Shown piece by piece: positions 40,952 to 57,048 of a stretch of 64,000 nucleotides of DNA. The stretch is from Nanobdellota archaeon (GTDB lineage Archaea; Nanobdellota; Nanobdellia; Pacearchaeales; GW2011-AR1): the NCBI GenBank assembly GCA_030641715.1, contig DAOWGX010000015.1, positions 560-64,559 on the forward strand, written 5' to 3'. A program made the translations under genes and the position numbers. Every line of letters starts with the position of its first letter. The stretch's first letter is position 1. The notes under the pieces are model-generated. The model saw nothing but the letters and a program-made list of their open reading frames with translations, made no database searches and was not told where the DNA came from.

Positions 40952-41003
40952 AAGAATTTGAGAGTAGAATTAATTATTTATAGCCAATAATCTAAATTTA
41001 GAT

Positions 41004-42172: not shown

Positions 42173-43252
42173 ATGATTAACAAGGTAAATAATCTTAAAG
42201 AGGACTCAGCAATTTTAACTACCATTCGAGGGGGGTTTAACCAATTCTATGCCCAGCAAAAATGGTCCTTAACTGGTCCGAACAAGAAACTAAATGAGAA
42301 ACTTTTAGAAGAAATAAGAAGTAGCACAGTATTTAGAAATGAAGGATACTCGGATTATAAAATGACTTCCTTGCCAAAATCTCCTAGTACAATTACTAAA
42401 AGACAATTAGTTAAAGATATATTTTACCTAGGAGAAAAAGTAGACTTTCCTAAATCAATTGTTAAGAAGATTAGTCAACATCATGCTTGGAAAATAGAAA
42501 GGATTGGAATAAAGAATCCAAAAAAAATATTAGCTGTCGGAGTTTCTAATGGAGGAGAACTTATAGCATTGAGGGCGATGTACCCTCGTGCAGAAATATT
42601 CGTTTGTGATTGGATTATCTCTCTATCAAAAAAAATGATTGATGAACTAAATATAAAAAACGTAAAAAAATCGACAATATGTGAATATTTAAAACATAAC
42701 AATGAATTCGATATAATTTATACCAACCATGTCTTAGAACATATGTTTAATCCCGACGAAACAATTTCATTATTATTTAAATCCTTAAAAAAAGGAGGCG
42801 TGCTAAGTTCAGGAATGCCCTTAGAAGGAGACGTCAGAAATCCTTTAAAAAACAGGACAATTAGACTCTTATCTGGAAAAGCATTCTATAGAAAATTTAA
42901 TATGGGAACTGTAAACATTGGACATCCTTGGAAAACAACTTATTCCGACCTTTGTCTAACCTTAAGACGTTCCGGTTTCAAAAAAATCGAATTCTTTAAA
43001 TTTGATGATTATACCGCCGCATGGCACATTGTAAATCCATTACCAAAAGAAAAAGTTGCTAAAAATTTGAAAATCAGATTAATTTTAGAAAAACTTATTT
43101 TTGGGACTATAAGAAATATTTTCTATAAGATAGACAAAGTTCCGAACATTATTCTTAGAGTATATTATAATTTTATGCATGCTTCCTGGTTCGGAGAGAG
43201 TAGGATTGTGGCTGATTTCACTCCTGAAGTATTTTTTGTAGCAAAAAAATAA
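42173..43252 (+). CDS. Class I SAM-dependent methyltransferase.
   Basis: ILAVGVSNGGE (motif I), DIIYTNHVLEHM and LKKGGVL. Confidence 0.7.
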   Translation: MINKVNNLKEDSAILTTIRGGFNQFYAQQKWSLTGPNKKLNEKLLEEIRSSTVFRNEGYSDYKMTSLPKSPSTITKRQLVKDIFYLGEKVDFPKSIVKKISQHHAWKIERIGIKNPKKILAVGVSNGGELIALRAMYPRAEIFVCDWIISLSKKMIDELNIKNVKKSTICEYLKHNNEFDIIYTNHVLEHMFNPDETISLLFKSLKKGGVLSSGMPLEGDVRNPLKNRTIRLLSGKAFYRKFNMGTVNIGHPWKTTYSDLCLTLRRSGFKKIEFFKFDDYTAAWHIVNPLPKEKVAKNLKIRLILEKLIFGTIRNIFYKIDKVPNIILRVYYNFMHASWFGESRIVADFTPEVFFVAKK

Positions 43253-43307
43253 CCTCATTCCATACAATCCTCGATATCTTTAAATAGATAACATTATCAA
43301 AATATAC

Positions 43308-44234
43308 ATGACAAAAATTTACGATTGTTTCCTATTCTTTAATGAACTTGATTTATTAGAAATAAGACTCAGCGAATTAAATGATTTTGTAGATTATTTC
43401 GTTTTAGTTGAAGCTAGGCAAAACCATCAAGGCAAATCGAAACCACTTTATTTCAAGGAGAACAAAGAGAGATTTAAAAAATGGAATGATAAAATAATTC
43501 ATATTATAGTTGATTTACCAAGATTTAATTTTATGGACAGACTCATGGTTAATTTAGAAAAAGGGAGACTTAGGGAGCCTATCAGAAAAATAAATGGAAT
43601 TGGATTTTTTGGGATGGGATTTGGAGGTTTAAAAATGGATCATTGGCAAAGAAGGCTTATTATCAAAGGATTAAAAAAATGTGGGGATGAGGATATCATT
43701 GTCGTATCTGATTTAGACGATATCCCGCGTTCAGAAAAAATGAGAGAAGTGATAGAATTATTGACAAAGCATAAAGTTGTAACAATAGAAACAGATTTCT
43801 ATAATTATTATATCAATGGAAAGGTGTGTGCCCTAAATGGAAGTCAAATAAAACGGGCTCAGGTACGTGCATGCAAATTTAAAACATTAAAAAAAGAATT
43901 TTTCTCTAATCCGCATTTTCTTAGAAGTCCTTTTGATAGTCCCTTAGGGAGAATAGGGATAATACCTCGAAATAGCTATTTGCTAAAAGATGCTGGCTGG
44001 AGTTTTTGCTCAGTTGGAGGAGCGGAAAAAGTCAAATTAAAAATAGAGTCTTTCTGCCATAGTGGAGAATTTAAAGATAAAGAATATTCAAACATATCCG
44101 AGATATCAAAAAAAATAGAATCTGGTGAATCTCTTGGAAGCGATCTTCACGTAGAATATATCAGAGTAGATAATACTTTTCCAAAGACAGTATTGGATAA
44201 CAAAAAGAAATTTTCACATATTATAAAAGAATAA
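43308..44234 (+). CDS. GT17-like (beta-1,4-mannosyl-glycoprotein GlcNAc-transferase family) glycosyltransferase.
   Basis: The N-terminal YDCFLFFNELDLLEIRLSELNDFVDYFVLVEARQNHQGKSKPLYF matches the GT17 family start. Confidence 0.7.
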   Translation: MTKIYDCFLFFNELDLLEIRLSELNDFVDYFVLVEARQNHQGKSKPLYFKENKERFKKWNDKIIHIIVDLPRFNFMDRLMVNLEKGRLREPIRKINGIGFFGMGFGGLKMDHWQRRLIIKGLKKCGDEDIIVVSDLDDIPRSEKMREVIELLTKHKVVTIETDFYNYYINGKVCALNGSQIKRAQVRACKFKTLKKEFFSNPHFLRSPFDSPLGRIGIIPRNSYLLKDAGWSFCSVGGAEKVKLKIESFCHSGEFKDKEYSNISEISKKIESGESLGSDLHVEYIRVDNTFPKTVLDNKKKFSHIIKE

Positions 44235-45056
44235 TCATAGGTTTATTGTGCTTTGTAAACATTTAGAAATTCCTTCCCTAACTTTAATTTGAGGATTATA
44301 TCCTAGAGCTCTTATTTTTGAGATATCAATTTTTACTTTTTGAGGTTGTTCTATTTCATGAGGCGCAAATCTAATTTTTGATAAACTTTTTGTTTGAGAG
44401 ATTATCTCATTTGCAACATCTATTAATTTCATTTCATCATTTCCTGCAATATCATAACTTTCATTCCACCTTTGCAAAGAAAGTATCACTCCTTCAACAA
44501 AATCATCTACATATGTAAAATCTAGGGTTTTGTCTTTATCTCCAAAAATAACCAACTCTTTATTATTTTTTGCATTATTTATGAAAATACTCATTAATCT
44601 CTTTGTGATATCCTCTCCAGGACCATAAACAGTGCTTGGCCTAATTATGATGTAATCTATCCCGTAACATTTTTTATAGGCTTCACAAAGTTCCTCCCCA
44701 TATAGTTTTGAAGAAGTATAGGTATTTTTTTCAGGACATAAAACTCTTGTAGACGAAAAATAAACTATTTTAGGTATTTTGTTTTTCCTACAAAATTCTA
44801 ATGAATTAAAAATTCCTTCTACATTTTCAAAGGCCCACTCAGGATTATCTACACATTTATTTATCTTACAATTTGAAGCTAAGTGAAACAAAATATCTGC
44901 CTTTGAAATTTCTTTTTTAGAGAGATTCCTTACATCAAGAGGATTACTTTTGTCTCTTAAATCAACACTTAAAATACATTCATTTCCACCCCCCTCTAAT
45001 CTTTGTTTTAATCTCCTCCCAATAAGTCCTTTATGACCTGTAATTATAAAATTCAT
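44235..45056 (-). CDS. NAD-dependent sugar epimerase/dehydratase (SDR). The start is moved to MNFIITG.
   Basis: ITGHKGLIG is the Rossmann motif, and YTSSK is the catalytic YxxxK. Confidence 0.8.
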   Translation of the reverse strand: MNFIITGHKGLIGRRLKQRLEGGGNECILSVDLRDKSNPLDVRNLSKKEISKADILFHLASNCKINKCVDNPEWAFENVEGIFNSLEFCRKNKIPKIVYFSSTRVLCPEKNTYTSSKLYGEELCEAYKKCYGIDYIIIRPSTVYGPGEDITKRLMSIFINNAKNNKELVIFGDKDKTLDFTYVDDFVEGVILSLQRWNESYDIAGNDEMKLIDVANEIISQTKSLSKIRFAPHEIEQPQKVKIDISKIRALGYNPQIKVREGISKCLQSTINL

Positions 45057-45266
45057 TTTATAATAAAAAAACATTATTTATTTGCATAAAATTAAACAAG
45101 ACAAAAAGTATTTAATTGTTTCTATTTAATCGGTTTCGCCAAGAGTTTCAAAATTAAAAACAAAAATTAATTAGATTGAAAAACAAAGAGCAAATCGAGA
45201 TTTCTTTTTTATTGATTCTGAACAATACCCAATTAAGAGTAATTATATAAACTTGAATTAATTTAT

Positions 45267-46169
45267 TTGGAAATGAATAAGTCAAAACTTACAACTCCAA
45301 TACTTTATCTCGCCTTCAATCGTCTAGATTCTGTTAAAAAAACATTCCCTGAGATACAAAAAGCAAAACCGAAACAGCTATTCATTGCATGCGACGGCCC
45401 ACGGAACAAAGAAGAGAAAGAAAAAACAGATTCCGTCAGAAAATACATCTTGAAAAACATCAATTGGAAATGTAAAGTTAAAACTTTATTCAGAAATAAA
45501 AATTTAGGATGCAAATATGCCGTCGCTGGAGCGATTAATTGGTTTTTCAAAAATGTTGAACAAGGGATTATCTTAGAAGACGATTGCTTGCCAGACCAAA
45601 GTTTTTTTAGATTTTGTCAGGAGATGCTGGAGAAATATAAAAATAATGAGAAAATAATACAGATTAGTGGAACTAGTTTTTTTAGTAAAAAAAGAAATAA
45701 ATATTCATATATATTTTCAAGATATGGCAATATATGGGGATGGTCCACATGGAGAAGATCATGGAAGAATTATGACGTGGATTTAAAAAATTATGATAAA
45801 TTCAACCAATTAAAATGGAAAGAAAAAATAAAATTTTTTGATAAAATTTTGAAAAGATATTATTTTTGGCTTGTAAAAAAAAAAGGGATAAATACATGGG
45901 ATTACCAATGGAACATTACTAGATCTAAAGTTGGAGGGTTAAGTATTATCCCCTCAGTCAATTTAATAGAAAATATAGGATTCAATGGATCAGGGACGCA
46001 TACAACAAGAATGGCAAAACTTACAAATAGAGAAAATCTCCACTTCCCAATTACACATCCTAAAAAATTTGAGGAAGATTTTAGATATAATTCACTTTAT
46101 TATATAAAAAAATCTATCCCGTCTGCCATGAAAACATGTGTGCGAATAATTTTAAATTTTTTTAGTTAA
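45267..46169 (+). CDS. HlpA-like (hemolytic-protein-like) putative GT-A nucleotide-sugar transferase.
   Basis: LAFNRLD...KPKQLFIACDGPRNKEE...GIILEDDCLPDQSFFRFCQEMLEKY matches the HlpA-like family pattern. Confidence 0.55.
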   Translation: MEMNKSKLTTPILYLAFNRLDSVKKTFPEIQKAKPKQLFIACDGPRNKEEKEKTDSVRKYILKNINWKCKVKTLFRNKNLGCKYAVAGAINWFFKNVEQGIILEDDCLPDQSFFRFCQEMLEKYKNNEKIIQISGTSFFSKKRNKYSYIFSRYGNIWGWSTWRRSWKNYDVDLKNYDKFNQLKWKEKIKFFDKILKRYYFWLVKKKGINTWDYQWNITRSKVGGLSIIPSVNLIENIGFNGSGTHTTRMAKLTNRENLHFPITHPKKFEEDFRYNSLYYIKKSIPSAMKTCVRIILNFFS

Positions 46170-46196
46170 CTCTTTAAAGAGTAAATCATTTTTACC

Positions 46197-47255
46197 GTGA
46201 TGGAATTACAAAGAAAAATTTCCTCATATTTTAATGGGGAGGAGTTTCCAAAGAATGTGTTAAAAAATAAAATTTCATTACTAAAAAAAAGTATTATAAA
46301 AGAAACTGGAGAAACCAAGTTTTTATCTTTTTCAGCATCTTATCAGAAAAAATATCATAATTTATTTACAAAAGAAAAAGTAATTGTAAAATTTGTAAAA
46401 CCATTCATAAAAACAAAAACCGATAAATTTCTTAAACCACTAAATGAATTTGTTAACTACATAAGAAAAAATTTTAAAAAAGAGGAGTTAGTTGGTGCAT
46501 ATATTCATGGAAGCCTTGCAACAAATGACTATGTAAGTGGATATTCGGATTTTGATGCAATTTTAATCATAAAAGAAGATGTAATGAAAGATGATTTTAA
46601 AATGATAAAAATTAGAAACAAAATAAAAAAAGCAAACACTTTTTTATATCTGCTAGATCCATTACAACACCATAATCTGTTTATTATCACTGAATTAGAT
46701 ATGAAATATTATTTCCAACCTACATTTCCAATAGAGCTTTTTAATTATGCAAGAGAGATTACGAATTATAAAAATATCTTAAAATTTAGATGTTTTTCCG
46801 AAGACGAACATTTAGATAAAATTTTTTTGTATAGGATAGATATGTTTTCCAATCCCAAAAAATATAAACTTGATAAAAAAAATGTATATGATATTAAAAA
46901 TGCTGTCCAAAATATTCTCCTCCTCCCAGCATTATACTTACAAGGAAAAAATAAAAAATATTTATATAAAAAATATTCTTTCAATAAAGCTAAAAAAGAT
47001 TTCTCAAGGAAGGAATGGGAAATAATAGAAAGATGCTCTCAACTTAGAAGAACTTTTTCATTTAAAACATATTATCCTTATTTTTTTAGAAAATTTTTAG
47101 GTACCTATGCTCATTATAAAATATTAAAAGCACTACATCTTTATTTAGATAGAAATAACACTAAAGAGATGATGCAAATACTCGGGGAAAATTTTTTATA
47201 TGATGCAAAAAAATTATCTAAAAAAATGTATGCAAAAATAAAAGATGGAAGATAG
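46197..47255 (+). CDS. Pol-beta superfamily nucleotidyltransferase-domain protein (paralog A).
   Basis: VGAYIHGSLATNDYVSGYSDFDAILII matches the GS-x9-13-DxD NTase motif. Confidence 0.45.
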   Translation: MMELQRKISSYFNGEEFPKNVLKNKISLLKKSIIKETGETKFLSFSASYQKKYHNLFTKEKVIVKFVKPFIKTKTDKFLKPLNEFVNYIRKNFKKEELVGAYIHGSLATNDYVSGYSDFDAILIIKEDVMKDDFKMIKIRNKIKKANTFLYLLDPLQHHNLFIITELDMKYYFQPTFPIELFNYAREITNYKNILKFRCFSEDEHLDKIFLYRIDMFSNPKKYKLDKKNVYDIKNAVQNILLLPALYLQGKNKKYLYKKYSFNKAKKDFSRKEWEIIERCSQLRRTFSFKTYYPYFFRKFLGTYAHYKILKALHLYLDRNNTKEMMQILGENFLYDAKKLSKKMYAKIKDGR

Positions 47256-48408
47256 ATTAATAAGCCTAATGAAAAAATCTACAATGATAGATAAGCCTAG
47301 GTATTACTCAAGAGAAGAATATAATAATGCTTCAAGAGAATATCTGAAGATACTTAATCCTAAAAAAAACAATATTAAATCAGTATATCAGGTAGGGTCT
47401 ATTGGAGTTCCGGGAATTTCCGATATTGATTATTTTATAGTTTATAAAAATGATAAAAATGATTTTTTTGGGAAATACCACATATTAAATCTTTCAAAAG
47501 ATTCTAAATACATGTTCTATCATAATTGTTGGTTCGTAAATGAGAAAGTTATTGAAAACCTTGGATACTGGTTTCCATTTTTTAATTTAGATAAGGTATA
47601 TGGAGATATAATCAATATAAAAAAAATTAAAGAAATTGAGATAGATTTAATTCTTGCCACCCAATATCTAATAAGTAAAATTCCTTATGACCTAATAGAT
47701 TATTCCATTAAGAGAAAAAAATTTTATCAAAGAACAATGCTTGTTTCTATACATTCATTAAGGCATACAGTCAAGCTTATAGATAGAATAGGATATGCTA
47801 AAAAAAATTGGTTAAGTTTTTGTGAAGAATTTGACAGATTCAGAAAAAACTGGTTCAAGGAAAAAAATCGGGAAGACAGATTAATAAAATTTTCAGCTAA
47901 GTCTATACTAATATCTCTCGATATAATAGAAATGTTTGACAAAATTTTAATAGAAAATTTTAATATACAAGCCCCAAAAGATTCATTTAAACTTCACTCA
48001 GGAAATAAAGATTTTTATTTTTTGAATAAATGGGATAAAGACAAAATATTAAAAAAATACATGATTCAGAAATTTAAAGACATTCGATACTACCCATCAT
48101 CTTTTGCATATTATCTCTATTTGAGAAGTATCGACAATGGTAATCTTGGAAAACAAATGAGGAAAAAATTTCCTCGAAACATAAAATATTCTGTTCCAAA
48201 AAATATTAAAACATCTTTTTCAAAGTATGAACAAATACTCAACGAATTTAACGAATTTAACAAGAAAAAATTCTGGATGACTGCTAATGGATATCATACA
48301 CTGTGGGCATCTTATTATGCAGAGAATTCTTCTCTTAATTATATTTATGATAAAATATTCAAAACGAGAGAGCTATCTATAATAATTTTTAAAAAAATTT
48401 TTAGCTAA
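47245..48408 (+). CDS. Pol-beta superfamily nucleotidyltransferase-domain protein (paralog B).
   Basis: VYQVGSIGVPGISDIDYFIVY is the NTase motif. The gene overlaps paralog A by 11 nt. Confidence 0.45.
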   Translation: MEDRLISLMKKSTMIDKPRYYSREEYNNASREYLKILNPKKNNIKSVYQVGSIGVPGISDIDYFIVYKNDKNDFFGKYHILNLSKDSKYMFYHNCWFVNEKVIENLGYWFPFFNLDKVYGDIINIKKIKEIEIDLILATQYLISKIPYDLIDYSIKRKKFYQRTMLVSIHSLRHTVKLIDRIGYAKKNWLSFCEEFDRFRKNWFKEKNREDRLIKFSAKSILISLDIIEMFDKILIENFNIQAPKDSFKLHSGNKDFYFLNKWDKDKILKKYMIQKFKDIRYYPSSFAYYLYLRSIDNGNLGKQMRKKFPRNIKYSVPKNIKTSFSKYEQILNEFNEFNKKKFWMTANGYHTLWASYYAENSSLNYIYDKIFKTRELSIIIFKKIFS

Positions 48409-48430
48409 CATTTCTACAGGTTTTTGTCAA

Positions 48431-48877
48431 CTACCCCTGACTAAAGTCCGGAGCGTGACTAATCCCAATGCTTGCTCTGCGACTCCTCAATATGATACCT
48501 CCCCCTCTTCGTTGTAACACATCCGACACTCCGGGCAAAATAACCCTCGCTCCAAAACTTTTTATCCCACAAAAACTCTTGAAAAATTCAAAATGATTTT
48601 TCCTCATTATCCTCGAAGAGAAACCCTCCAGCAACTGAATAACCTGACAAGGTGCATAATTCTTGCAATTCGTTACAAAAAGGTGGATGTGTCCGGGTCC
48701 AAATTCCAAACAAACAAACTCACCATTTATCTCATTCAGTTTTTCCAGAAGATAAGTCTCGGTTAATTTCAAAACCCCCCCACTAGAGAAGATTTGTCTT
48801 CGATAAGCGACGGTCAACTGAATGTGATAGTTAAATTCACCGACGGCATGGTGGTAGTTACGTGTTTCAAATTCCAT
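48431..48877 (-). CDS. tnpA: IS200/IS605-family transposase TnpA (HUH, Y1 type), possibly degenerate.
   Basis: YHIQLTVAYRRQIF...GPGHIHLFV (HuH) ...EGFSSRIM are present. The C-terminal FGARVILPGV lacks the expected catalytic-Tyr context. Confidence 0.65.
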   Translation of the reverse strand: MEFETRNYHHAVGEFNYHIQLTVAYRRQIFSSGGVLKLTETYLLEKLNEINGEFVCLEFGPGHIHLFVTNCKNYAPCQVIQLLEGFSSRIMRKNHFEFFKSFCGIKSFGARVILPGVSDVLQRRGGGIILRSRRASIGISHAPDFSQG

Positions 48878-49025
48878 TTTAATCCTCCACTAAGTTTATT
48901 TAGTTTCAGAAAGTTACAACTACAATCGTTATTCAAAAAAGTAGGGTCAACTTCCTACTTTTTTAGAATCTTTTTTAGAATATATAATTACCGACGACGA
49001 AGTTCGCCAACAAATAGCACAATTC

Positions 49026-49049
49026 ATCTCTCCACTAAACTGGAGAGAT
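49026..49049. repeat. Perfect hairpin (9-bp stem ATCTCTCCA/TGGAGAGAT, loop CTAAAC), a candidate IS200 left-end subterminal hairpin.
   Basis: Seen directly in the sequence, about 150 nt upstream of the tnpA start. Confidence 0.5.
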
Positions 49050-49070
49050 TTCCTGATGTAGCAAACTTTT

Positions 49071-49094
49071 AAAATGATTATTAAAATGATTATT
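49071..49094. repeat. Tandem direct duplication of the 12-mer AAAATGATTATT.
   Basis: Two exact adjacent copies lie at the junction between the IS-like region and the next gene end. Confidence 0.6.
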
Positions 49095-49979
49095 AAACAA
49101 TAGATTTATTCATACTTAATATACATTCCGAAGAATTTCCCCTTACAATCATACAGTCGAGATTTAGGTTTTCAACCTTTATTTTTTTTAGTTTGAGATA
49201 TTCAAATAGGTGACGTTCTGAAGTGTATCTAAAGTCTCTTGGAGGGGTTATAAATAGAAGATTTCTTAATAGCATAAAATTATGATAAAATAACAAACCT
49301 TTTCTTGTTCCTCTTTTCTTTTTAAATACAAAATTTATGAATTTAGTATAAAATTTCTCTAAGAAAAAAGAAATATGGATAGCTATATTTTTGTTTGGTA
49401 TAAATAATCTTTTTATGACTTCGTCATAATATAGAACTCGCTCAGAATAAACATTCATCAAGTTTTCATTTCCTACTGCTACTATATCATTGTAGACACT
49501 ATCCTGTCCTATAAATTTTGGCGGAATATACACCACCGATTGATCTAATTTGCTATAATCTATTTGATTCAAAGGTAAGATATCAAATCTAATTCTAAAT
49601 ACATGTTTATATTTAACATTCTTCTCATTAGAATAAGACTTTCTTACTTTATCCACTAAAAAAACTTTATTGAGCTGATTCAAATGTCTATTGAATGTCT
49701 CAGCTTCTTCTCTTAAAAAAATTTATTATAATTTAAACTAACAATCTTTTCATGTTTTTTTACTAAATTCTCAGTCTTCACTTTTAATACCTTTGTTGGG
49801 TTCAATAAATTTACCTTATGCGTATCTTTATCGTCTTCTACACAACAAAAAATGTCGTAATCTTTTTTATTTTCTCCAAGAGGATCTAGTAAGTTTTTTT
49901 GAATGTATGGATAGCATAGGTCTAATGATCTTGCCTGTCCAGAAAAGCAAAATGCGACCTTCTTAATCTTAATCTTCAT
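49093..49979 (-). pseudogene. Single gene split by a -1 frameshift in an A7 (T7 on the coding strand) homopolymer. The two ORFs, 49713-49979 and 49093-49683, have unknown function, possibly sugar-transferase-like.
   Basis: The upstream ORF ends at TAA just after the run TCTTAAAAAAATTT (49711-49724). The downstream ORF continues in the adjacent frame and only has a TTG start. Confidence 0.45.
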
Positions 49980-50301
49980 TTTCTACTATATATTTATCTC
50001 CTTTAACGGAAGGTATTTTGACTACGACATTTTTTGAATCTGTTACAGCAGAAAAGGCAACTACTTCTCCAGGCATTATAAGAATTATATCTCCCTTGGT
50101 ATATTCTCTATCATTCATTTTTACAGTACCTTCTAAAATATATGTTATCTCTTTTGCTACCTTGTGGTAATGAGGCTCTTCTAAATCTCCTGCAATATAC
50201 GTCTTCACTGCAACTTCACACTCTTTCGACTGAAGACACGTCGGTTCAAAATCTCCTATAAACCGGCCTTTGATCATATTTTTATGAGAATATTTCTTCA
50301 T
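49969..50301 (-). CDS. Cupin-domain protein (sugar ketoisomerase/epimerase-like small cupin).
   Basis: A 110-aa single cupin with HYHKVAKEITYILEGTVKM...GDIILIMPGEVVAF. Confidence 0.55.
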   Translation of the reverse strand: MKKYSHKNMIKGRFIGDFEPTCLQSKECEVAVKTYIAGDLEEPHYHKVAKEITYILEGTVKMNDREYTKGDIILIMPGEVVAFSAVTDSKNVVVKIPSVKGDKYIVENED

Positions 50302-50351
50302 GTGTGTTTGTGAATATAAATATTTATAAGTCTATTGATGTTTTTTTACAC

Positions 50352-51146
50352 ATGATTAAAGCCGTAATATTTGACCTTGATGGTGTTTTGGTAGATGCTA
50401 CAGAATGGCATTATGGGGCATTAAATAGAGCATTGGCCTTATTCGGATTTAATATCGATAGGGGTCTGCATCTTTCAGAATATAACGGACTTCCAACAAA
50501 AGAAAAATTGAAAAGATTATCCAATCAGAAAGAATTTCCATTATCTTTATTAGAATTTACAAATGAGATGAAACAAAAATATACTATACAAGAAATTGAA
50601 AAAAATTGTAATCCTGTTTTCGAAAAACAATTTATGATATCTAGACTAAAAAAAGATGGTTATGTTTTAGCAGTTTGTTCTAACTCAATAAAAGAAAGTG
50701 TATTTAAAATGTTGAATAATTCAGGCATTTTAGATTATTTTGAGATGACTGTTGGAAATGATGAAGGGTACCCAAATAAACCTAGTCCGGTTATGTATAT
50801 TGAAACTATAAAAAAACTTGGCGTTTCTCCAAAAGAAGTTATTATAGTTGAGGATTCTCCCCATGGAATTAATGCAGCTAAACTTTCTGGAGCTAATGTC
50901 TGTGAAGTAAAAGGATTTTCAGAAGTTAATTATGATTTGATTAAAAAATTTATTAGAAAAATAGAATCACAAAAAAACAAAGGAAGTATCGATAACATAA
51001 GTAATGATACCCTTGAGTTAAAAAATGATAAAGCGGAAAGTATATGTGAGATTTATAATCTCCTTGGAGAGAAGTTAAATACCGATTCTAGTGAAAATAT
51101 TTTGAGAGAAATAAAAGGGATTTTAACGAGGGAAATAAAATGCTGA
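50352..51146 (+). CDS. HAD-superfamily hydrolase, subfamily IA (beta-phosphoglucomutase-like). The start is moved to MIKAVIFDLDG.
   Basis: VIFDLDGVLVD (motif I), CSNS (motif II) and VEDSPHGINAAKLSGA (motifs III/IV). Confidence 0.8.
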   Translation: MIKAVIFDLDGVLVDATEWHYGALNRALALFGFNIDRGLHLSEYNGLPTKEKLKRLSNQKEFPLSLLEFTNEMKQKYTIQEIEKNCNPVFEKQFMISRLKKDGYVLAVCSNSIKESVFKMLNNSGILDYFEMTVGNDEGYPNKPSPVMYIETIKKLGVSPKEVIIVEDSPHGINAAKLSGANVCEVKGFSEVNYDLIKKFIRKIESQKNKGSIDNISNDTLELKNDKAESICEIYNLLGEKLNTDSSENILREIKGILTREIKC

Positions 51147-51880
51147 ATATTATAATTCCGATGGCGGGGAAAGGTTCTAGATTTATAGAAAAAGGATATA
51201 CTTTTCCAAAACCTTTAATCGAGATTAAAGGGAAACCTATGATTCAATTAGTAGTTGAAAACTTAACTCCTAAGGATATTGACCATAGGTTTATTTTTAT
51301 AGTCAGAAAAGAGCATTGTGATAAATATGCCATAAAAGAACTTCTAGGTAGCATTGCTCCAGATTGTATAATAATTCCTATTGATCTAGTGACCCAAGGA
51401 GCTGCATGTACTGTTTTATTAGCGAGCAAGTATATTAATAATAATGATTCTCTTTTAATTGCAAATTCTGACCAGTACGTTGATTTTAATTTTGAAGATT
51501 ATCTTAAATTTTCAGAAAATGGTAACAATGATGGATCAATCTTAACATTTCCTTCAAATCATCCAAAATGGTCATATGCTAGGTTGGATGATGACCTGAA
51601 TGTTATAGAGGTCGCTGAAAAGAAACCAATAAGCGATAAGGCTACTGTTGGGATATATTATTTCAAAAAGGGGAGATTGTTTTGCGAGAGTGTAATGGAT
51701 ATGATTCGTAAAAATATCCGAGTGAATAATGAGTTCTATGTTTGCCCGGCCTATAATGAAGCAATCCTTAACAACAAAAAAGTATCTATTTATAATATAA
51801 CACGGGATCAAATGTGGGGGATTGGAACTCCGGAAGATTTAGAACTTTTTTTGGGCAGTGATATCGCTAATAAAATCTAA
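51140..51880 (+). CDS. Sugar-phosphate/phospho-alcohol nucleotidyltransferase (GT-A NTP_transferase fold).
   Basis: The N-terminal IIPMAGKGSRF...PKPLIEIKGKPMI is the nucleotidyltransferase signature. Size is 246 aa. Confidence 0.8.
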   Translation: MLNIIIPMAGKGSRFIEKGYTFPKPLIEIKGKPMIQLVVENLTPKDIDHRFIFIVRKEHCDKYAIKELLGSIAPDCIIIPIDLVTQGAACTVLLASKYINNNDSLLIANSDQYVDFNFEDYLKFSENGNNDGSILTFPSNHPKWSYARLDDDLNVIEVAEKKPISDKATVGIYYFKKGRLFCESVMDMIRKNIRVNNEFYVCPAYNEAILNNKKVSIYNITRDQMWGIGTPEDLELFLGSDIANKI

Positions 51881-51881
51881 T

Positions 51882-52631
51882 ATGGAAATTTTTGCACATA
51901 GAGGTATTGGTTTTGGTTTGACAGAAAATTCTATTGAGGCTTTTGAGAAATGTCTAGATAATGGGTTCTCTATAGAAGTAGATGTTCAAAAAACTTCTGA
52001 CAATAAATTAATATTACTCCATAATAAATTCATTAAGGATTATAATGGGAAAAATATTAATATAGAGCGATCTTCATTTAATGAAATTAAGTGTCATGTT
52101 TACTCTTTTAATTCTTTGTTAAATATTTTTTCAGGAAAGAAAAATAATTTAAAAATGGCAATTCATATTAAAGACGAAAATCAAGGTGATATTTTAAAAT
52201 TGGTATGTAATGAAATTTTTAATAAAAAGTTAACTGATCGCTGTTTTATTTTTGATGTTACAAAAAATGGGAGGGATAAAATAAAAAAAATCAACCCATT
52301 AATTAATATTGGTTTTTCTGTTGGAGAAAAAAGACACTCAAAAACAATTTTTTTATTGGAAGATTTGGATAAAGAGAACTACGACATTGTTTGGTGGGAT
52401 TGGTGGGGATATGAAAAATTATATACTAAAAAAAATTTAGAAAGGATTAAAAATTCACTGAAAAAAGTATATGTAATTTCTCCAGAATTGCATAAAGAGG
52501 GTAATCATCCCTCTGCTAGAAATTTGAATAGAATAGAAAATGTATGGAATGATTTAATTTCGTTGAATGTCGATGGTATCTGTACCGACTATCCCTCGAG
52601 GTTATTTAATTTTTACAATAAACATCATTAA
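51882..52631 (+). CDS. Glycerophosphodiester phosphodiesterase (GDPD) family protein. The start is moved to MEIFAHRG.
   Basis: FAHRGIGFGLTENSIEAFEKCLDNGFSIEVDVQKTSDNKLILLHN matches the GDPD HR...EN..AF...E.D motifs. Confidence 0.8.
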   Translation: MEIFAHRGIGFGLTENSIEAFEKCLDNGFSIEVDVQKTSDNKLILLHNKFIKDYNGKNINIERSSFNEIKCHVYSFNSLLNIFSGKKNNLKMAIHIKDENQGDILKLVCNEIFNKKLTDRCFIFDVTKNGRDKIKKINPLINIGFSVGEKRHSKTIFLLEDLDKENYDIVWWDWWGYEKLYTKKNLERIKNSLKKVYVISPELHKEGNHPSARNLNRIENVWNDLISLNVDGICTDYPSRLFNFYNKHH

Positions 52632-52665
52632 CTTTGTCCGAATAACAAACAACATGGCGTTTTCA

Positions 52666-53085
52666 TCATCTTTCTACTAATGCCTTTAATCCACCTATAA
52701 AAATAACTGGACTAGACATGTGATACCTGCTCGAAGTTATTTTATTCCAAAAAAGTTTGTTTGCATAGTAAATTGGATAGAATAAATTCCTAATTAAACG
52801 AACTATAAAGCCAAATCCTTCAGTCCCTCGCTTGTCTATAAATTTTATTTTCTTAAAGCCTGCAGCGCATAAAACATAAAGAAGACTGCCTGATGTAAAT
52901 AATGTTTTATGAGTAAAGTCTTCATACATCCAATAGCATCCAGTGTTTGATTGGGCGTTTGGAACTATAACACAAAACTTTCCTTTTTCTGTCAAGGTAT
53001 ATTTTCGGATGGCAATTAATGTTTTAATTATTTCTTCTTTATTTCTTGGACCATCAGTTCCAATAAAAAGTTGTTTGGGTTTCAT
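52666..53085 (-). pseudogene. Chimeric gene remnant. The N-terminal ~20 aa are homologous to the start of the HlpA-like gene at 45267, fused to a C-terminal methyltransferase-like fragment.
   Basis: MKPKQLFIGTDGPRNKEE here matches KPKQLFIACDGPRNKEE at 45267, and the remainder lacks an intact domain. Confidence 0.3.
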
Positions 53086-53287
53086 TTTTTTATCCCCTAG
53101 AATGTTCTTTTACTAAATCTAGCCTATTGAAAACAGTATAAAGTATTGGAATATCGTATTGTTTTCCCATAGTGAATGTTATCCTGAAAAGTTTTTATAT
53201 TTAGTCGAATTAAAAATGGCCATATAAGAAGTACTTTTATTATTTCGTTCTAGACAACTAAGAAGATTATTTTATAAGCCCCCAATC

Positions 53288-53754
53288 TTATCCCACAACT
53301 TGAAAATTTATTCCTTTCTTTCTTGTAAAATCTTGAACGGTATTTAATACCCTAACCATACTAATATCATGACCTGCCAAAATTCCTCCAGCCTTAACTT
53401 TCAGATAATAATTTTCTAAATCTTCCAAAACATTTTTATAACTATGATTTCCATCAATATATATATATAATCTACAGTAGGAACTAAATTTATTGCCTCG
53501 TTTGAATACTTCTTCATCTAATTAACCTCCGAGTATTTTCTTAACCTTTTTTTGGCAATCTTGTTTATCTTATTCAAAAACGATTTCTTCACCTCGCACC
53601 GATCCTCTCTTTCAGAGTTATCGATATAATCATTATAGGGATCAACAAAATATATTTTTTCAATATTAAGATTATTTAGAATGTGTTGTGCATTTACTCC
53701 CCTGGAAGTTTCAATCTCTATTGCAGTAATCTTTTTATTTTTAAATAACATCAT
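53288..53754 (-). pseudogene. Frameshifted class I SAM methyltransferase (Methyltransf_24/TylF-like) pseudogene.
   Basis: The N-terminal part is in the 53518-53754 ORF (ITAIEIETSRGVNAQ...IYFVDPY). The C-terminal part (IDGNHSYKNVLEDLENYYLKVKAGGILAGHDI...) is in another frame. A (TA)5 run at 53461-53470 lies near the frame break. Confidence 0.4.
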
Positions 53755-53839
53755 TACCTCTTGCCTTGTTATATACCTATAATTACCTGCCGTTTTTCAA
53801 TAACTCTATAACCAAGATCCAATTTTTTATAAAATATCC

Positions 53840-54859
53840 TTAGAGATTAGTCTCCATCAGAGCCTTTATAATTTTTCCCCCACAGTTATTCCAATTATAT
53901 TTCTTCATCAATTTGGCCCTAATTCCGATTTTCTGCTTTTTACTTAATTTTATAACCTCGTCCATCGCCCGGAAAACTGATTCCGAATTATAGATATCAC
54001 AAGCACCTGGAAGCCCAACACCAATTTCCTTTAACGAAGTTTTATTGTTAAACACCACGGGAGTTAAATAATTATATGACTCAATTAAAGGTAATCCGAA
54101 CCCTTCTATAGAGGACAAAAAAATTGTAAATTTAGCATCTCTATAGTATCCCGCAAGTTCCTCATCTGTCATTTCCCCATTGGAAAAAATTCCCTTATAA
54201 TTCGTTCCCTTTATCTTATTATATTCTTTCAATAACTCTATAGACCTTTCTAAATTTTTATGAGGGTTTCTGTTTCCAATTATAAAAACATAACAGTCTT
54301 TTTTTATTAGAGGTTTTTTACATTTATATTTCTCAGAGCCCAAAGGAACGACGATAATTTTTTTTGAAGTAAATTTACTAATCTGATGTTTCGAAAAATT
54401 TGAATTTGTAAAGATTAAGTCAAATCTTTTTGCAGAAATAATTAAGAGAATAGAAACAATTAGAAAAGATAACATCCATTTTTTTAAATAATATAATGGT
54501 ATTAAATCATGCATAAATCCAATATATTTTATATTTTTATATTTTTTAAAAGGGACATGTCCTTTCGGAAAAAATAATAAATCCAATTTATTTTTTATTG
54601 CAAATTTATTAGCGGACATTGGATAAAAAAATAATTTATTAAAAACATATTTCCTCCGGTTTTTCTTGATTATAAATTTTTTACATTTAAATTTTTTAAA
54701 ATATTTTTTACTTTCTTCATTCAAAATTAAGATAATTTCCAATCTTTTCTCTTTCTCCAATTCCTTCAAAATATACCTAACAACTTTAAGTATTCCGATT
54801 GATTTTGTTTTTTTGAGATTTATATCTGCACAATAATAACCTATTTTCAATTTTTTCAT
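53840..54859 (-). CDS. GT4-family (GT-B, group 1) glycosyltransferase.
   Basis: The C-terminal FLSSIEGFGLPLIESYNYLTPVV carries the EX7E motif. Confidence 0.8.
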   Translation of the reverse strand: MKKLKIGYYCADINLKKTKSIGILKVVRYILKELEKEKRLEIILILNEESKKYFKKFKCKKFIIKKNRRKYVFNKLFFYPMSANKFAIKNKLDLLFFPKGHVPFKKYKNIKYIGFMHDLIPLYYLKKWMLSFLIVSILLIISAKRFDLIFTNSNFSKHQISKFTSKKIIVVPLGSEKYKCKKPLIKKDCYVFIIGNRNPHKNLERSIELLKEYNKIKGTNYKGIFSNGEMTDEELAGYYRDAKFTIFLSSIEGFGLPLIESYNYLTPVVFNNKTSLKEIGVGLPGACDIYNSESVFRAMDEVIKLSKKQKIGIRAKLMKKYNWNNCGGKIIKALMETNL

Positions 54860-55536
54860 TATCTTATAATCTGAACTTCATTTAAATATCTCAACCCCAT
54901 CAAACTCCTCCAAACCTTCCCCCGCGAATGTCCAAAATCCGTAACCAGTCTATAAAACCATTCCAATCCGACCCCTCTAAAAATCCTCGGCGCCTCTCTT
55001 TTCTTCTCCAACAAAAAATCCATTGCTGCCCCGACATTAAAATAAAAAGTAGAATATTTTTTATATAATTGATTAGCCAGAATCTCTTGTTTAGGATTCC
55101 CAATACAAACCCAAACATAATCAGGTTTAAATTTCCCCAATTGTTCCCCAACTTTTTCAACTTCTTTTTGAGGAAAAACCATACATTTTATATAAGGAGG
55201 ATTGTACGATTTCGCCTTCTTTAATTTAGGAAATTTTTCAATCAGCCCGGCAAGGTCTTCTTCAGAGAGGCCTACAAAAAAATGTTTTTGTTTGCTATTA
55301 AGTTTATCTTGGAAAAAATCTCTTGTAAATGAAGGCCCTCGAATTTGTTTCGTTCTTAAAAAAAAACTTAATATCTTCCCATCTGGAAATATAAAATTCT
55401 CCGAAGACGATACAGCCCTTTTAAAAATTGGCTCGTTGTTAAATAAATAAACCGAATAAAGATTCTGAAAATTTAGAATTCCATCTTTGCTCGATTTTAG
55501 TATCTCTTGCGGAGTTTTTCCCGTAAAATCCATCAT
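54859..55536 (-). CDS. WecB/TagA/CpsF-family (GT26) glycosyltransferase.
   Basis: FPDGKIL...IRGPSFTRDF...FFVGLSEED...GNPKQEILANQL...NVGAAMDFLLEKKREAPRIFRGVGLEWFYRL matches the GT26 signature throughout. Confidence 0.8.
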   Translation of the reverse strand: MMDFTGKTPQEILKSSKDGILNFQNLYSVYLFNNEPIFKRAVSSSENFIFPDGKILSFFLRTKQIRGPSFTRDFFQDKLNSKQKHFFVGLSEEDLAGLIEKFPKLKKAKSYNPPYIKCMVFPQKEVEKVGEQLGKFKPDYVWVCIGNPKQEILANQLYKKYSTFYFNVGAAMDFLLEKKREAPRIFRGVGLEWFYRLVTDFGHSRGKVWRSLMGLRYLNEVQIIR

Positions 55537-55566
55537 GATATTCCTAGATTTATAATATATAAAAAC

Positions 55567-57048
55567 CTACCCCTCCAACAACATCCTTTTCAACTTTATC
55601 CCCGTCATCCCTTCCAAGTGTTCCCTCGCCCGAGACCCAAACTTCTCCCCAATCATCCCAAGATATCTCTCACTTGTAAAATACTCGTCAAAAGCATTAT
55701 CCCTAAACTGAAGCACCTCCTTAGAAGAAAGATGATCCGTCGACAACGGTAAAGAATTATAAGAATGTTGAGAATATCCTTGCCAACCAATATCCTTAAA
55801 ATCCTCGGGCAAAGGCACTTTATTCGCAACAGATTCCGTATGCAACTTCGACCCCGGATACGCCATCGCAGAGTAAAAATTCGCCCACTCACAATTCAAT
55901 TCCTTAGCCATCTCCAACGTCTTCCCCATGCTCCCCATATCGTCGTCAGGCAACCCAAAAATATAATTCCCTCCAACATTAATACCATGATTTTTTATTT
56001 CCCCAACAACCCTATATATTTCTTCTTTCTTAAACCGACCCTTAGAAACCTTTCCCCGAACTTCATTATCCCCAGATTCAATACCCAACGCCAACCAATT
56101 TATCCCTGCCTTCTTAAATTTATCAAGATGCTCCTCCTTTGTGGTATCTACTCTCGCATACGTCCAGATATTCAAGCCATAATCCCTTTCTATCAACCCA
56201 TCCACAATTGGCATAAAATGGCTAGGTTTCAAAACGAATATTTCATCAATTAATTTAAGATTTTTAACGTCGTATTTCTTAACCAAAGTATCTATCTGCT
56301 TAAGAGTCCAGTCAGCATCCCAAGACCTATAAGATGGTCCCCCAAATGGTGCATTAATACAACAAAAAGAACACCCAAACGGGCAACCAAGCGTCGTCGA
56401 GAGTGCGGCATAATTCAACCTTGAATCCAAATCATCAAGCACATGCCAGTTATGCGCCTTATACTTATCCATCGGCAACAAATCCCAAGCAACATCATTC
56501 AATTCAGCCGGCAAATTTTTAATCAACTTCGCAGGAGGACCATTCGAAATAACATCCCCATCTCGATACCACAATCCCGGAATCGTATTTAGCGACGCAC
56601 CCTCGAGCAATCCTTCCAATGTATGAAACCCTTCCCCAACAGAAACATAATCCACAGCCTCCTCCCTAAGCGTCTTCCCAGGAAGCGCCGAAGCATGAAT
56701 CCCCGTAAGAACAACTTTCGAATCCAGATTCGCATCATTTATCTTCCTCGACAATTCTCCAATCCCAGTCATCAACGCCGTCGACGCAGAAGGATGTTGT
56801 CCATAACCGACAATATTAATCAACCGAGGAGAACGCTCTTCAATCGTCCGCACCGTTTCATCAAAATCCAGATTCTCGGCATTCGCATCCAAAATATCAA
56901 CAGAGTAATCCTTTTTTTGCATATAAGAAGCCGTCAACGCAGCCCAAAACGGAGGCTCTATCGCAGAATAATCACTACTCAAATCCTGATATATCTTCTT
57001 TCTCGTCCCGCCGACATTAACGAACAGTAAGTCTAAGTCTTTTGACAT
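55567..57048 (-). CDS. Cobalamin-binding (class B) radical SAM enzyme.
   Basis: An N-terminal B12-binding Rossmann-like region is followed by CPFGCSFC (CxxxCxxC) and a radical SAM core. The gene is markedly GC-richer than its flanks. Confidence 0.75.
   Translation of the reverse strand: MSKDLDLLFVNVGGTRKKIYQDLSSDYSAIEPPFWAALTASYMQKKDYSVDILDANAENLDFDETVRTIEERSPRLINIVGYGQHPSASTALMTGIGELSRKINDANLDSKVVLTGIHASALPGKTLREEAVDYVSVGEGFHTLEGLLEGASLNTIPGLWYRDGDVISNGPPAKLIKNLPAELNDVAWDLLPMDKYKAHNWHVLDDLDSRLNYAALSTTLGCPFGCSFCCINAPFGGPSYRSWDADWTLKQIDTLVKKYDVKNLKLIDEIFVLKPSHFMPIVDGLIERDYGLNIWTYARVDTTKEEHLDKFKKAGINWLALGIESGDNEVRGKVSKGRFKKEEIYRVVGEIKNHGINVGGNYIFGLPDDDMGSMGKTLEMAKELNCEWANFYSAMAYPGSKLHTESVANKVPLPEDFKDIGWQGYSQHSYNSLPLSTDHLSSKEVLQFRDNAFDEYFTSERYLGMIGEKFGSRAREHLEGMTGIKLKRMLLEG

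What the first reader, a model, noticed from the sequence alone, without database searches (positions are those of the whole stretch)
50352..52631. HAD phosphatase/mutase, nucleotidyltransferase and GDPD trio, a candidate route for a phospho-alcohol (glycerol-phosphate or similar) glycan decoration.
Three co-directional, tightly spaced genes (51140 overlaps the HAD stop, and GDPD starts 2 nt after the NTase stop) encode a beta-PGM-like HAD, an NDP-activating transferase and a glycerophosphodiester phosphodiesterase. GDPD yields sn-glycerol-3-phosphate from glycerophosphodiesters. Together with a cytidylyl/nucleotidyl-transferase, this resembles CDP-glycerol or CDP-alcohol supply for teichoic-acid-like phosphodiester substituents, here embedded in an N-glycosylation island.
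Basis: inference. Interest (0 to 1): 0.55.

Follow-up and report, generated by a model that had tools for sequence, protein, structure and literature searches.

The report
Conserved sugar-activation cassette with odd phosphodiesterase
The three genes are real and form the core of a gene set shared by many bacteria, tiny archaea and phages. It most likely builds an activated building block for surface sugars, but its product is still unknown and is probably not the glycerol-phosphate first proposed.

Summary
Observation confirmed. HAD (50352-51146), nucleotidyltransferase NT1 (51140-51880) and a GDPD-fold phosphodiesterase (51882-52631) are co-directional and tightly packed.

They are not a chance neighbourhood. 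The same trio, often in the same order, recurs in Micrarchaeota, CPR bacteria, Flavobacteria, proteobacterial plasmids and cyanophages. Partners are often fused: HAD-NT1, cupin-NT1, NT-NT, NT-GDPD, GDPD-WavE, GDPD-DUF7796, GDPD-HIT.

In the window the module also includes a small metal-type cupin (49969-50301, minus strand). It further includes a DUF7796 gene (49093-49979, minus strand), a weak relative of WavE and the likely transferase. This gene is frameshifted at an A7 run, which reads A8 (in frame) in two sister samples.

NT1 sits nearest sugar-1-phosphate nucleotidyltransferases, not TagD, IspD or TarI. No TagF or LicD enzyme was detected in the genes scanned. The one WavE-type partner modelled has a GT-A fold, though the match is weak.

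Best reading: a mobile, uncharacterised cassette that makes a nucleotide-activated sugar-type donor. The GDPD-like enzyme handles a phosphodiester intermediate.

The scan had already noted this cassette on other DNA. The product remains unknown.

The parts
50352..51146 (+). HAD-IA hydrolase, beta-phosphoglucomutase-like (264 aa; the ~55-aa C-terminal tail is absent from homologues). Probably a phosphomutase or a specific sugar-phosphate phosphatase that feeds NT1.
   Evidence: PF13419 113 bits. TIGR02009 95 bits and bPGM TIGR01990 82 bits are both below their cut-offs. Profile against L. lactis beta-PGM: D8, D10, H20, G46, K74 (=K76), S110 (=S114), K143, E167 and D168 are kept, while R49 becomes T49 and K117 becomes I113. 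It is fused to NT1 in all 80 best viral homologues and in many bacterial proteins.
51140..51880 (+). NT1: an NTP_transferase-fold nucleotidyltransferase (246 aa). It belongs to a very large, well conserved family (about 60% identity across domains) that PGAP names 'glycosyltransferase family 2 protein'.
   Evidence: PF00483 59 bits. The best PDB match is 4EVW (V. cholerae, uncharacterised), E 2e-22. Motifs PMAGxGSRF, PKPL, SDQ and AEK(160/161) are present.
51882..52631 (+). Divergent GDPD-fold (PLC-like TIM barrel) metal phosphodiesterase (249 aa).
   Evidence: PF03009 47 bits. Profile against 2PZ0 gives E 2e-23. AlphaFold model pLDDT 95.7, with Foldseek top hits all GDPDs at TM 0.75-0.80. E32, D34, H47 and K97 are invariant, H6 and R7 nearly so. 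H95 replaces the third metal-binding Glu. Family-specific motifs are WWDEW, ISPELH and DGICTD.
49969..50301 (-). Small cupin (110 aa) with an HxHK...E metal motif, transcribed divergently from the trio across a 50-bp AT-rich spacer. Probably a sugar(-phosphate) isomerase or epimerase of the cassette.
   Evidence: PF07883 27.8 bits. Orthologues sit inside the cassette in L005, L006, L007, L009, L010, L016 and L017. It is fused to NT1 in ~360-aa proteins and in L039 and L047.
49093..49979 (-). DUF7796-family gene, a weak relative of WavE and the likely transferase for the product. It is split by a -1 frameshift at an A7 run (+ strand 49715-49721). Its start overlaps the cupin stop by 11 nt.
   Evidence: PF25072 E 2.9e-5, 23.6 bits, below the 27-bit cut-off. 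Both pieces match the DUF7796 half of the GDPD-DUF7796 fusion P0336 (phmmer 2.6e-6 and 2.3e-5). Relatives follow NT1 in Algibacter (L007 6726-7520) and lie in 12 viral loci. Read directly, one extra base restores the frame. Contigs of two other samples carry that extra A.
50302..50351 (.). A 50-bp AT-rich spacer between the divergent cupin and HAD genes, containing TATA-like AAATATTTATAA about 20-30 nt upstream of the HAD ATG. Presumed bidirectional archaeal promoter region.
   Evidence: Direct reading and inference only. The bacterial-type promoter scan was uninformative.

Best explanation
The trio is the conserved core of a horizontally mobile cassette that synthesises a donor for surface glycans. 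No paper found here describes its biochemistry.

Proposed working:
1. A sugar phosphate, possibly isomerised first by the neighbouring metal cupin, is handed by the beta-PGM-like HAD enzyme to NT1 in the right phosphorylation state. The HAD enzyme acts either as a mutase or as a specific phosphatase.
2. NT1 couples the sugar phosphate to an NTP, giving a nucleotide-activated sugar-type donor.
3. The GDPD-fold enzyme is catalytically competent, with a His in place of the third metal-binding Glu. It cleaves or rearranges a phosphodiester that arises at or next to the nucleotidyl-transfer step. It does not simply salvage glycerophosphodiesters.
4. A WavE-type enzyme (GT-A fold in the one relative modelled), here the phase-shifted DUF7796 gene, then adds the product to the AglB-dependent or another surface glycan.

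Shown: gene anatomy, family and fold assignments, conserved catalytic residues, conserved linkage and fusions.

Inferred: substrate class, order of steps and identity of the product, which is unknown.
For: Linkage:
- HAD, NT1 and GDPD-like genes co-occur in 9 of 10 close genome loci. These span Micrarchaeota, Saccharibacteria, Doudnabacteria, Algibacter and Flavobacterium. L002 and L003 have exactly the window's HAD-NT1-GDPD order.
- 28 of 36 GDPD-anchored metagenome loci carry partners.
- 80 of 80 viral NT1 loci are HAD-NT1 fusions, and 59 of them have a GDPD-like gene.
- The same five genes are annotated on the P. aeruginosa PA83 and Ruegeria plasmids.

Fusions:
- HAD-NT1, NT-NT and cupin-NT1.
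- NT-GDPD, GDPD-WavE, GDPD-DUF7796, GDPD-HIT and flippase-GDPD.

NT1 nearest sugar-1-phosphate NTases, with GxGSRF and EK motifs.

HAD keeps the beta-PGM catalytic set, including the His20/Lys76 pair.

GDPD-like: confident TIM-barrel model with conserved H, R, E, D, H and K residues.

WavE-like partner folds as GT-A, nearest to glycosyltransferases.

The surrounding genes are GTs, flippases, ABC transporters and O-antigen ligases.
Against: - No member of the cassette has been assayed, and NT1 matches no curated equivalog. All NCBIfam scores are far below their cut-offs.
- The NTP_transferase fold also includes enzymes for non-sugar phosphates such as LicC and IPCT, so 'sugar' is not proven.
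- The role of the GDPD-like enzyme is inferred from fusions alone, and the fusion pattern does not fix an order of steps.
- The GT-A match of the WavE-like model is weak (TM about 0.4, model pLDDT 76). Its hit list also holds GT-A-type cytidylyltransferases (IspD, KdsB, PntC).
- C. jejuni IA3902 carries a gene set that looks like the cassette by size and annotation. Its capsule showed no extra component (PMC7901785).
Confidence: 0.6

Rival explanations
1. The GDPD enzyme releases glycerol-3-phosphate from glycerophosphodiesters. The HAD enzyme may shift it to glycerol-2-phosphate. NT1 then makes CDP-glycerol (or another CDP-alcohol), and a phosphotransferase attaches a phospho-alcohol to the glycan.
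For: - The third enzyme is a true GDPD-family member with the catalytic H, R, E, D, H and K residues.
- HAD-IA relatives include glycerol-phosphate phosphatases, and the beta-PGM core is kept.
- NT1 passes the PF12804 cut-off narrowly (27.7 against 27 bits), and the NTP_transferase fold includes LicC-type enzymes.
- From memory only: the pneumococcal CDP-2-glycerol genes gtp1-3 lie side by side, and gtp2 is a nucleotidyltransferase. Gene order and role are cited in PMC1391919 and PMC5581491. The protein families could not be checked.
Against: - NT1 scores best with sugar-1-phosphate NTases. IspD is below its cut-off and TagD gives no match.
- No TagF, LicD or TagD gene was detected among the island genes scanned (40022-57048) or in the contexts inspected.
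- The WavE-type partner modelled is GT-A fold.
- The frequent cupin and second NTase have no role in this route.
- GDPD fusions to NT, HIT and transferases place the enzyme at the nucleotide or transfer step rather than at precursor supply.
- The C-terminal half of the barrel carries family-specific motifs unlike GlpQ or UgpQ.
Confidence: 0.17
2. Ketofuranose activation through a cyclic phosphate. An NTase activates a ketose 1-phosphate (or bisphosphate). The PLC-like GDPD enzyme lets the anomeric 2-OH attack, giving a 1,2-cyclic phosphate, and opens it to the ketose 2-phosphate. The HAD enzyme removes the distal phosphate. NT1 then makes the NDP-2-ketofuranose, for example of fructose or xylulose type, for a WavE-type transferase.
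For: - It accounts for every part: the two NTase paralogues, the PLC-type phosphodiesterase, the phosphatase and the isomerase-type cupin.
- It also fits the fusions NT-GDPD and HAD-NT1.
- Earlier scan notes, not checked here, report variants of the cassette with RpiB, PfkB kinase, KdsC and RuBisCO-like enzymes, all of which act on ketose phosphates.
- No donor pathway for bacterial fructofuranose turned up in the held literature.
- From memory only: WavE is named after V. cholerae, whose core carries fructose. The best solved NT1 relative, 4EVW, is from V. cholerae.
Against: - This is pure inference with no assay behind it.
- The C. jejuni HS1 type strain makes fructofuranose branches with an 11-gene locus that has no such cassette (PMC7901785).
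- The window and loci L002 and L003 have only one NTase.
- The reported link to E. coli K4 region 2 could not be verified.
Confidence: 0.1
3. Three unrelated housekeeping enzymes that merely lie side by side: a sugar-phosphate phosphatase, an RmlA- or GalU-like NTase, and a lipid-salvage GDPD.
For: Each family is common and has housekeeping members.
Against: - Linkage and multiple fusions are conserved across three domains and phages.
- Distribution among relatives is patchy: a GDPD orthologue in 1 of 60.
- The genes sit inside a low-GC variable glycan island.
Confidence: 0.03

Closest known systems
NDP-heptose pathway pair GmhB (HAD phosphatase) with HddC or HldE (nucleotidyltransferase)
   Same: A HAD enzyme delivers the phosphate ester that an NTP_transferase-fold enzyme then activates. 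HddC is among NT1's solved relatives (6JQ8 and 5XHW, E about 5e-6).
   Different: GmhB is HAD-IIIA, not the beta-PGM-like HAD-IA. That pathway has a SIS isomerase and a kinase and no GDPD-fold enzyme. NT1 scores 26 bits against a 300-bit cut-off for the HddC equivalog.
Glycerophosphodiester phosphodiesterases GlpQ and UgpQ, and the thermophile GDPDs 2PZ0 and 1O1Z
   Same: Same TIM-barrel fold (TM 0.75-0.80). Same HR, ExD and H motifs, the same Lys, and the same C-terminal DGIxTD motif.
   Different: His replaces the third metal-binding Glu (HIK instead of EIK). Strands 4 to 7 carry family-specific conserved residues (FD, SVGEK, WWDEW, ISPELH). The gene is always tied to NTase, HAD and transferase genes rather than to glp or ugp uptake genes. 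Phage versions are only 140-155 aa.
PDB 4EVW, 'nucleoside-diphosphate-sugar pyrophosphorylase' of Vibrio cholerae RC9 (structural genomics)
   Same: The best solved relative of NT1 (E 2e-22, aligned over residues 4-238), sharing the PMAGxSSRF, PKP and AEK motifs.
   Different: No substrate or function is known. The only held paper that mentions 4EVW is a crystallisation-prediction study.
Teichoic-acid-type CDP-alcohol supply (TagD, TarI/TarJ, LicC) and the pneumococcal CDP-2-glycerol genes gtp1-3
   Same: A small operon inside a glycan locus that activates a phosphate ester with an NTP for a decoration.
   Different: NT1 is not a TagD or IspD family member. No TagF or LicD transferase was detected. 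The families of Gtp2 and Gtp3 could not be checked, because the paper PMC2950487 is not held and no sequences were reachable.
Type II phosphomannose isomerase / GDP-mannose pyrophosphorylase (ManC, AlgA type)
   Same: An NTP_transferase domain joined to a metal cupin. The cassette has cupin-NT1 fusions of about 360 aa.
   Different: Domain order is reversed: cupin is N-terminal here. The cupin is only about 110 aa and gives no MannoseP_isomer match.
Insertion CJSA_1357-1362 in the Campylobacter jejuni IA3902 (HS1/8) capsule locus
   Same: By size and annotation it looks like the same cassette: a 241-aa 'glycosyl transferase', a 219-aa haloacid dehalogenase, a 212-aa unknown protein and a 109-aa unknown protein (PMC7901785).
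   Different: No structural product of the insertion was seen in that capsule.

Membership tests
NTP_transferase (PF00483) | Pfam score above the gathering cut-off, plus the N-terminal GxG(T/S)R nucleotide loop and the PKP motif | tested here: met
   59 bits against 21.2. Motifs PMAGKGSRF, FPKPL, SDQ and AEK are conserved in 30 homologues.
Glucose-1-phosphate thymidylyltransferase RmlA (TIGR01207, TIGR01208) | Equivalog score above the curated cut-off | tested here: not met
   34 against 361 bits, and 62.8 against 320 bits. Algibacter carries a separate canonical rmlA next to the cassette.
IspD/TarI cytidylyltransferases (PF01128, TIGR00453) | Score above cut-off over the whole domain | tested here: not met
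   19 against 27 bits, covering only residues 4-79. TIGR00453 gives 18 against 181 bits.
TagD-type glycerol-3-phosphate cytidylyltransferase (PF01467) | Any match to the CTP_transf_like family | tested here: not met
   No match at E <= 0.01 in Pfam or NCBIfam.
LicC-type phosphocholine cytidylyltransferase | Sequence similarity to LicC structures, plus an aromatic choline box | tested here: inconclusive
   No LicC chain appears among PDB matches at E <= 0.01. PF12804 is passed only narrowly (27.7 against 27 bits). The choline-box residues could not be mapped.
GDPD family (PF03009) | Pfam score above cut-off, TIM-barrel fold, and the catalytic His-Arg, Glu/Asp metal pair, second His and Lys | tested here: met
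   47.3 against 23.6 bits. Model pLDDT 95.7, TM 0.75-0.80 to solved GDPDs. E32, D34, H47 and K97 are invariant, H6 and R7 nearly invariant.
GDPD family (PF03009) | Third metal-ligand Glu of the E-I-K motif | tested here: not met
   Replaced by H95 in at least 90% of the subfamily, and by Asn in L004 and L007. Aligned to IEIK of 2PZ0 and 1O1Z.
GlpQ/UgpQ equivalogs (NF006989, NF008354) | Equivalog score above cut-off | tested here: not met
   23 against 264 bits, and 15 against 254 bits.
Beta-phosphoglucomutase (TIGR01990) | Equivalog score, plus the catalytic set D8, D10, H20, K76, S114, K145, E169, D170 | tested here: inconclusive
   The score of 82 bits is below the 189-bit cut-off. The catalytic set, however, aligns residue for residue.
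Beta-phosphoglucomutase (TIGR01990) | Distal phosphate site R49, K117, N118 | tested here: not met
   These positions are T49, I113 and R/K114. K52 is conserved instead.
HAD/NT1/GDPD-like cassette (unnamed, recurrent) | The three genes adjacent or fused, inside a glycan locus | tested here: met
   Window order HAD-NT1-GDPD equals that of L002 and L003.
WavE (PF07507) / DUF7796 (PF25072) putative transferases | A member next to the cassette | tested here: inconclusive
   No WavE in the 84%-complete genome. The frameshifted gene at 49093-49979 matches DUF7796 below cut-off (23.6 against 27 bits) and matches the fusion P0336 at E about 1e-5 to 1e-6.

The most novel reading that the evidence does not exclude
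The cassette is a new route to nucleotide-activated ketofuranoses (fructose, xylulose or a related sugar). The PLC-like GDPD enzyme would move the phosphate onto the anomeric carbon through a 1,2-cyclic phosphate made from a first nucleotide adduct. The HAD enzyme would remove the distal phosphate. NT1 would form the final donor for WavE or DUF7796 transferases. This would supply the missing donor pathway for ketose residues in bacterial, archaeal and phage-directed glycans.
Probability: 0.1. Interest if true: 0.85.

Novelty: new variant of a known kind. Interest (0 to 1): 0.55.

Why it matters
Operons that supply nucleotide sugars are well known. This one pairs a beta-PGM-like HAD enzyme and an uncharacterised nucleotidyltransferase with a GDPD-fold phosphodiesterase, an enzyme type with no known role in making glycan donors.

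It is very widespread. At least 8000 NT1 homologues were scored, at least 591 viral contigs carry it, and about 121 GDPD-subfamily clusters exist. Carriers include cultured Synechococcus phages, Pseudomonas and Rhizobium plasmids, CPR bacteria and DPANN archaea. Working out its product would annotate thousands of glycan loci and could reveal a new activated sugar or a new way of making one.

For this archaeon it means the AglB island carries an imported, possibly phase-variable decoration module.

Tried and rejected
- Complex prediction on NT1 with the GDPD-like protein gave no verdict (score 0.00).
- No RNA holder was listed for the stretch.
- The bacterial-type promoter scan found no excess over shuffles.
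- A viral scan with the GDPD profile pattern found nothing. The phage forms are too divergent and were found through NT1 instead.
Three found nothing and one gave only a 40-nt chance match in a housekeeping HAD gene. It remains unverified.
- The pneumococcal Gtp1-3 comparison failed. The key papers are not held, no supplements are held, and no pneumococcal sequences were reachable.
- The literature on 4EVW consists only of a crystallisation-prediction paper.
- Two WavE literature searches were swamped by the ordinary word 'wave'.
- No paper describing an NDP-fructose or fructose-2-phosphate route turned up.
- The Protein Atlas gave only generic names.
- The LicD/TagF idea for the pol-beta pair at 46197-48408 found no support. 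There was only a sub-threshold Polbeta hit, and no PDB match at E <= 1.
- A fructose-only reading was marked down, because the C. jejuni HS1 type strain makes fructose branches without this cassette.
Full report
**Observation.**
- A HAD-IA hydrolase runs from 50352 to 51146 (PF13419, 113 bits).
- An NTP_transferase-family protein, here called NT1, runs from 51140 to 51880 (PF00483, 59 bits). Its ATG overlaps the HAD stop.
- A GDPD-family protein starts at 51882, one base after the NT1 stop, and ends at 52631 (PF03009, 47 bits).

They lie in a low-GC stretch (about 25-32% GC) downstream of aglB (35456-38119). Around them are GT11, GT92-like, GT17, GT4 and GT26 genes, methyltransferases and a B12 radical SAM gene. 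The genome is a 731-kb, 84%-complete assembly from a cold-seep metagenome. Earlier notes of this scan call it a DPANN archaeon.

**Linkage is conserved.** A genome-collection scan with NT1 returned ten close loci: Micrarchaeota, Anstonellaceae, Saccharibacteria, Doudnabacteria, another Patescibacteria genome, Algibacter luteus and Flavobacterium sp..
- tblastn and ORF clustering show HAD next to NT1 in 9 of 10 loci and a GDPD-like gene in 9 of 10.
- A second NTase paralogue (NT2, 32-43% identical) is present in 7, and a 110-aa cupin in 5.
- L002 and L003 contain only HAD-NT1-GDPD, in the window's order. The trio is therefore the minimal core.

Starting instead from the GDPD-like protein, 28 of 36 metagenome loci carry HAD, NT or cupin partners. 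Most of the rest are short or cut at a contig end.

Starting from NT1 in viral contigs, at least 591 loci exist. All 80 fetched are HAD-NT1 fusions, and 59 carry a GDPD-like gene, usually a 140-155-aa miniature form. Cultured Synechococcus phages (S-CAM9, S-PRM1, B3, B23 and others) encode 54-56% identical NT1 domains.

Annotated plasmids show the same set:
- The P. aeruginosa PA83 plasmid has NT1, 'phosphodiesterase', HAD, NT2 and cupin in a row.
- Ruegeria has the same set followed by a WavE gene and a flippase.
- Azospirillum has a fused NT2-NT1.

Among 60 relatives of the host, only one genome has an orthologue of the GDPD-like gene. There both the HAD and the GDPD frames contain a stop. 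The cassette is therefore an accessory, transferred module.

**Fusions.** Homology searches found many fused forms.
- HAD-NT1 proteins of about 455 aa, NT-NT tandems of about 500 aa (Zymomonas, Rhizobium, Agrobacterium vitis) and cupin-NT1 proteins of about 360 aa.
- A profile search of 1.84 billion representatives found 121 clusters of the GDPD subfamily at E <= 1e-30. Among them are NT-GDPD, GDPD-WavE, GDPD-DUF7796, GDPD-HIT and flippase-GDPD fusions.

These tie the phosphodiesterase to the nucleotidyl-transfer and transfer steps, not to lipid salvage.

**Two more parts in the window.**
- The 110-aa ORF at 49969-50301 on the minus strand is the cassette's cupin, with invariant H44, H46 and E51. 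It diverges from the HAD gene across a 50-bp AT-rich spacer.
- Its stop overlaps the start of a gene split into 49713-49979 and 49093-49683. Both pieces match DUF7796 and the DUF7796 half of fusion P0336.
- Relatives of this gene follow NT1 in Algibacter and lie in 12 viral loci.
- The break is a missing base in a T7 run on the minus strand, and one more T restores a frame of about 290 aa.
- Contigs from two other samples of the same study carry the extra base. They are otherwise identical but of low depth, 4.4 and 2.4. This could be phase variation, population heterogeneity or a homopolymer error.

**What the enzymes look like.**
- *NT1.* It has the PMAGxGSRF loop, PKPL, SDQ and an invariant Glu160-Lys161. 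Its best curated matches are sugar-1-phosphate NTases: rmlA_long 2.5e-17, archaeal GlmU 1e-13, AglF 5e-10, HddC 5e-6. All are far below their cut-offs. IspD is sub-threshold and TagD is absent. The best solved relative is the uncharacterised 4EVW, followed by GMPPB, HddC and RmlA.
- *HAD.* It aligns with L. lactis beta-PGM so that D8, D10, H20, G46, K74 (=K76), S110 (=S114), K143, E167 and D168 coincide. The distal phosphate residues R49 and K117 are T49 and I113, with K52 and R/K114 conserved instead. Mutase or phosphatase activity cannot be decided.
- *GDPD-like protein.* It models as a confident TIM barrel (pLDDT 95.7) whose top structural neighbours are all GDPDs. E32, D34, H47 and K97 are invariant, and H6 and R7 nearly so. 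The third metal-binding Glu is His95. Strands 4 to 7 carry subfamily-specific polar motifs.
- *WavE-like partner.* It folds as GT-A (pLDDT 76). Its nearest matches are mostly GT-A glycosyltransferases, plus a few GT-A-type cytidylyltransferases, at low TM of about 0.4.

**Interpretation.** The most economical reading is a precursor-activation module. A sugar phosphate is prepared by the cupin and HAD enzymes and nucleotide-activated by NT1. A phosphodiester intermediate or by-product is handled by the GDPD-like enzyme. The product is then transferred by a WavE-type enzyme (GT-A fold in the one relative modelled), here the DUF7796 gene.

- NT1's affinities lie with sugar-1-phosphate NTases.
- No TagD, TagF or LicD was detected. 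The pol-beta pair shows no LicD signal.
- The WavE-type partner modelled is GT-A.
- The cupin and NT2 partners have no role in that route.

A ketofuranose route through a cyclic phosphate would use every part. It fits unverified earlier notes on RpiB, PfkB, KdsC and RuBisCO-like variants. However, the fructose-bearing C. jejuni HS1 type strain lacks the cassette. Strain IA3902, whose insertion looks like the cassette by size and annotation, showed no new capsule component (PMC7901785).

Papers confirm only that the E. coli K4 capsule is fructosylated and that kfoE is needed for this (PMC8858990, PMC7925653). The claimed presence of cassette relatives in K4 could not be checked.

**Status.** The cassette is real, widespread and, in the library searched here, undescribed. 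The scan had already noted it on other DNA. This window adds a DPANN archaeal instance with the minimal trio, the cupin, and a homopolymer-switched DUF7796 gene.

Noticed in passing
window 49715-49721: The A7 run that breaks the DUF7796 gene reads A8 (in frame) in contigs of two other cold-seep samples (X2 and X4). This could be phase variation or population heterogeneity. The contigs are of low depth, so a homopolymer error is not excluded.
   Followed up: partly
viral loci L057-L136, e.g. L132 5717-6178 and L133 6025-6480: Phage versions of the GDPD-like protein are only 140-155 aa. They keep the ISHRGN, E.DVW and LGHD motifs. That is too short for a full (beta/alpha)8 barrel, so they may be half-barrels that dimerise.
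   Followed up: no
window 45267-46169, window 52666-53085, and L010 2322-3221: The 300-aa GT-A-like protein at 45267 has a 41% identical homologue about 0.5 kb upstream of the cassette in Flavobacterium sp. GT2N3. The fragment at 52666-53085 repeats 49 residues of its N-terminal region (52% identity over residues 34-82).
   Followed up: partly
window 50980-51146: The window's HAD protein has a Lys/Glu/Asn-rich C-terminal tail of about 55 aa that is absent from 13 homologues. It ends where NT1 starts, and may be a remnant of, or a step towards, the HAD-NT1 fusion seen elsewhere.
   Followed up: no
P0328, P0356 (representative proteins): The GDPD-like domain also occurs fused to a HIT nucleotide-hydrolase/transferase domain and to the C-terminus of a Wzx-type flippase.
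   Followed up: no
G038:C1:131704-135420 (L141): In the only relative with an orthologue, the HAD and GDPD-like frames lie directly next to each other, each holds one in-frame stop, and no NT1 sits between them. This is either a decaying copy or a different genetic code.
   Followed up: no
G000:C19:68109-68609 (about 3.5 kb beyond the window end): A weak second NTP_transferase-like region (E 4e-5) lies inside a 685-aa open frame.
   Followed up: no
L016 10154-11929 and L017 7768-9477: Hypothetical proteins of 569-591 aa with faint GT2 similarity follow the cassette on the Pseudomonas and Scandinavium plasmids, together with WavE genes and ABC-transporter genes.
   Followed up: partly
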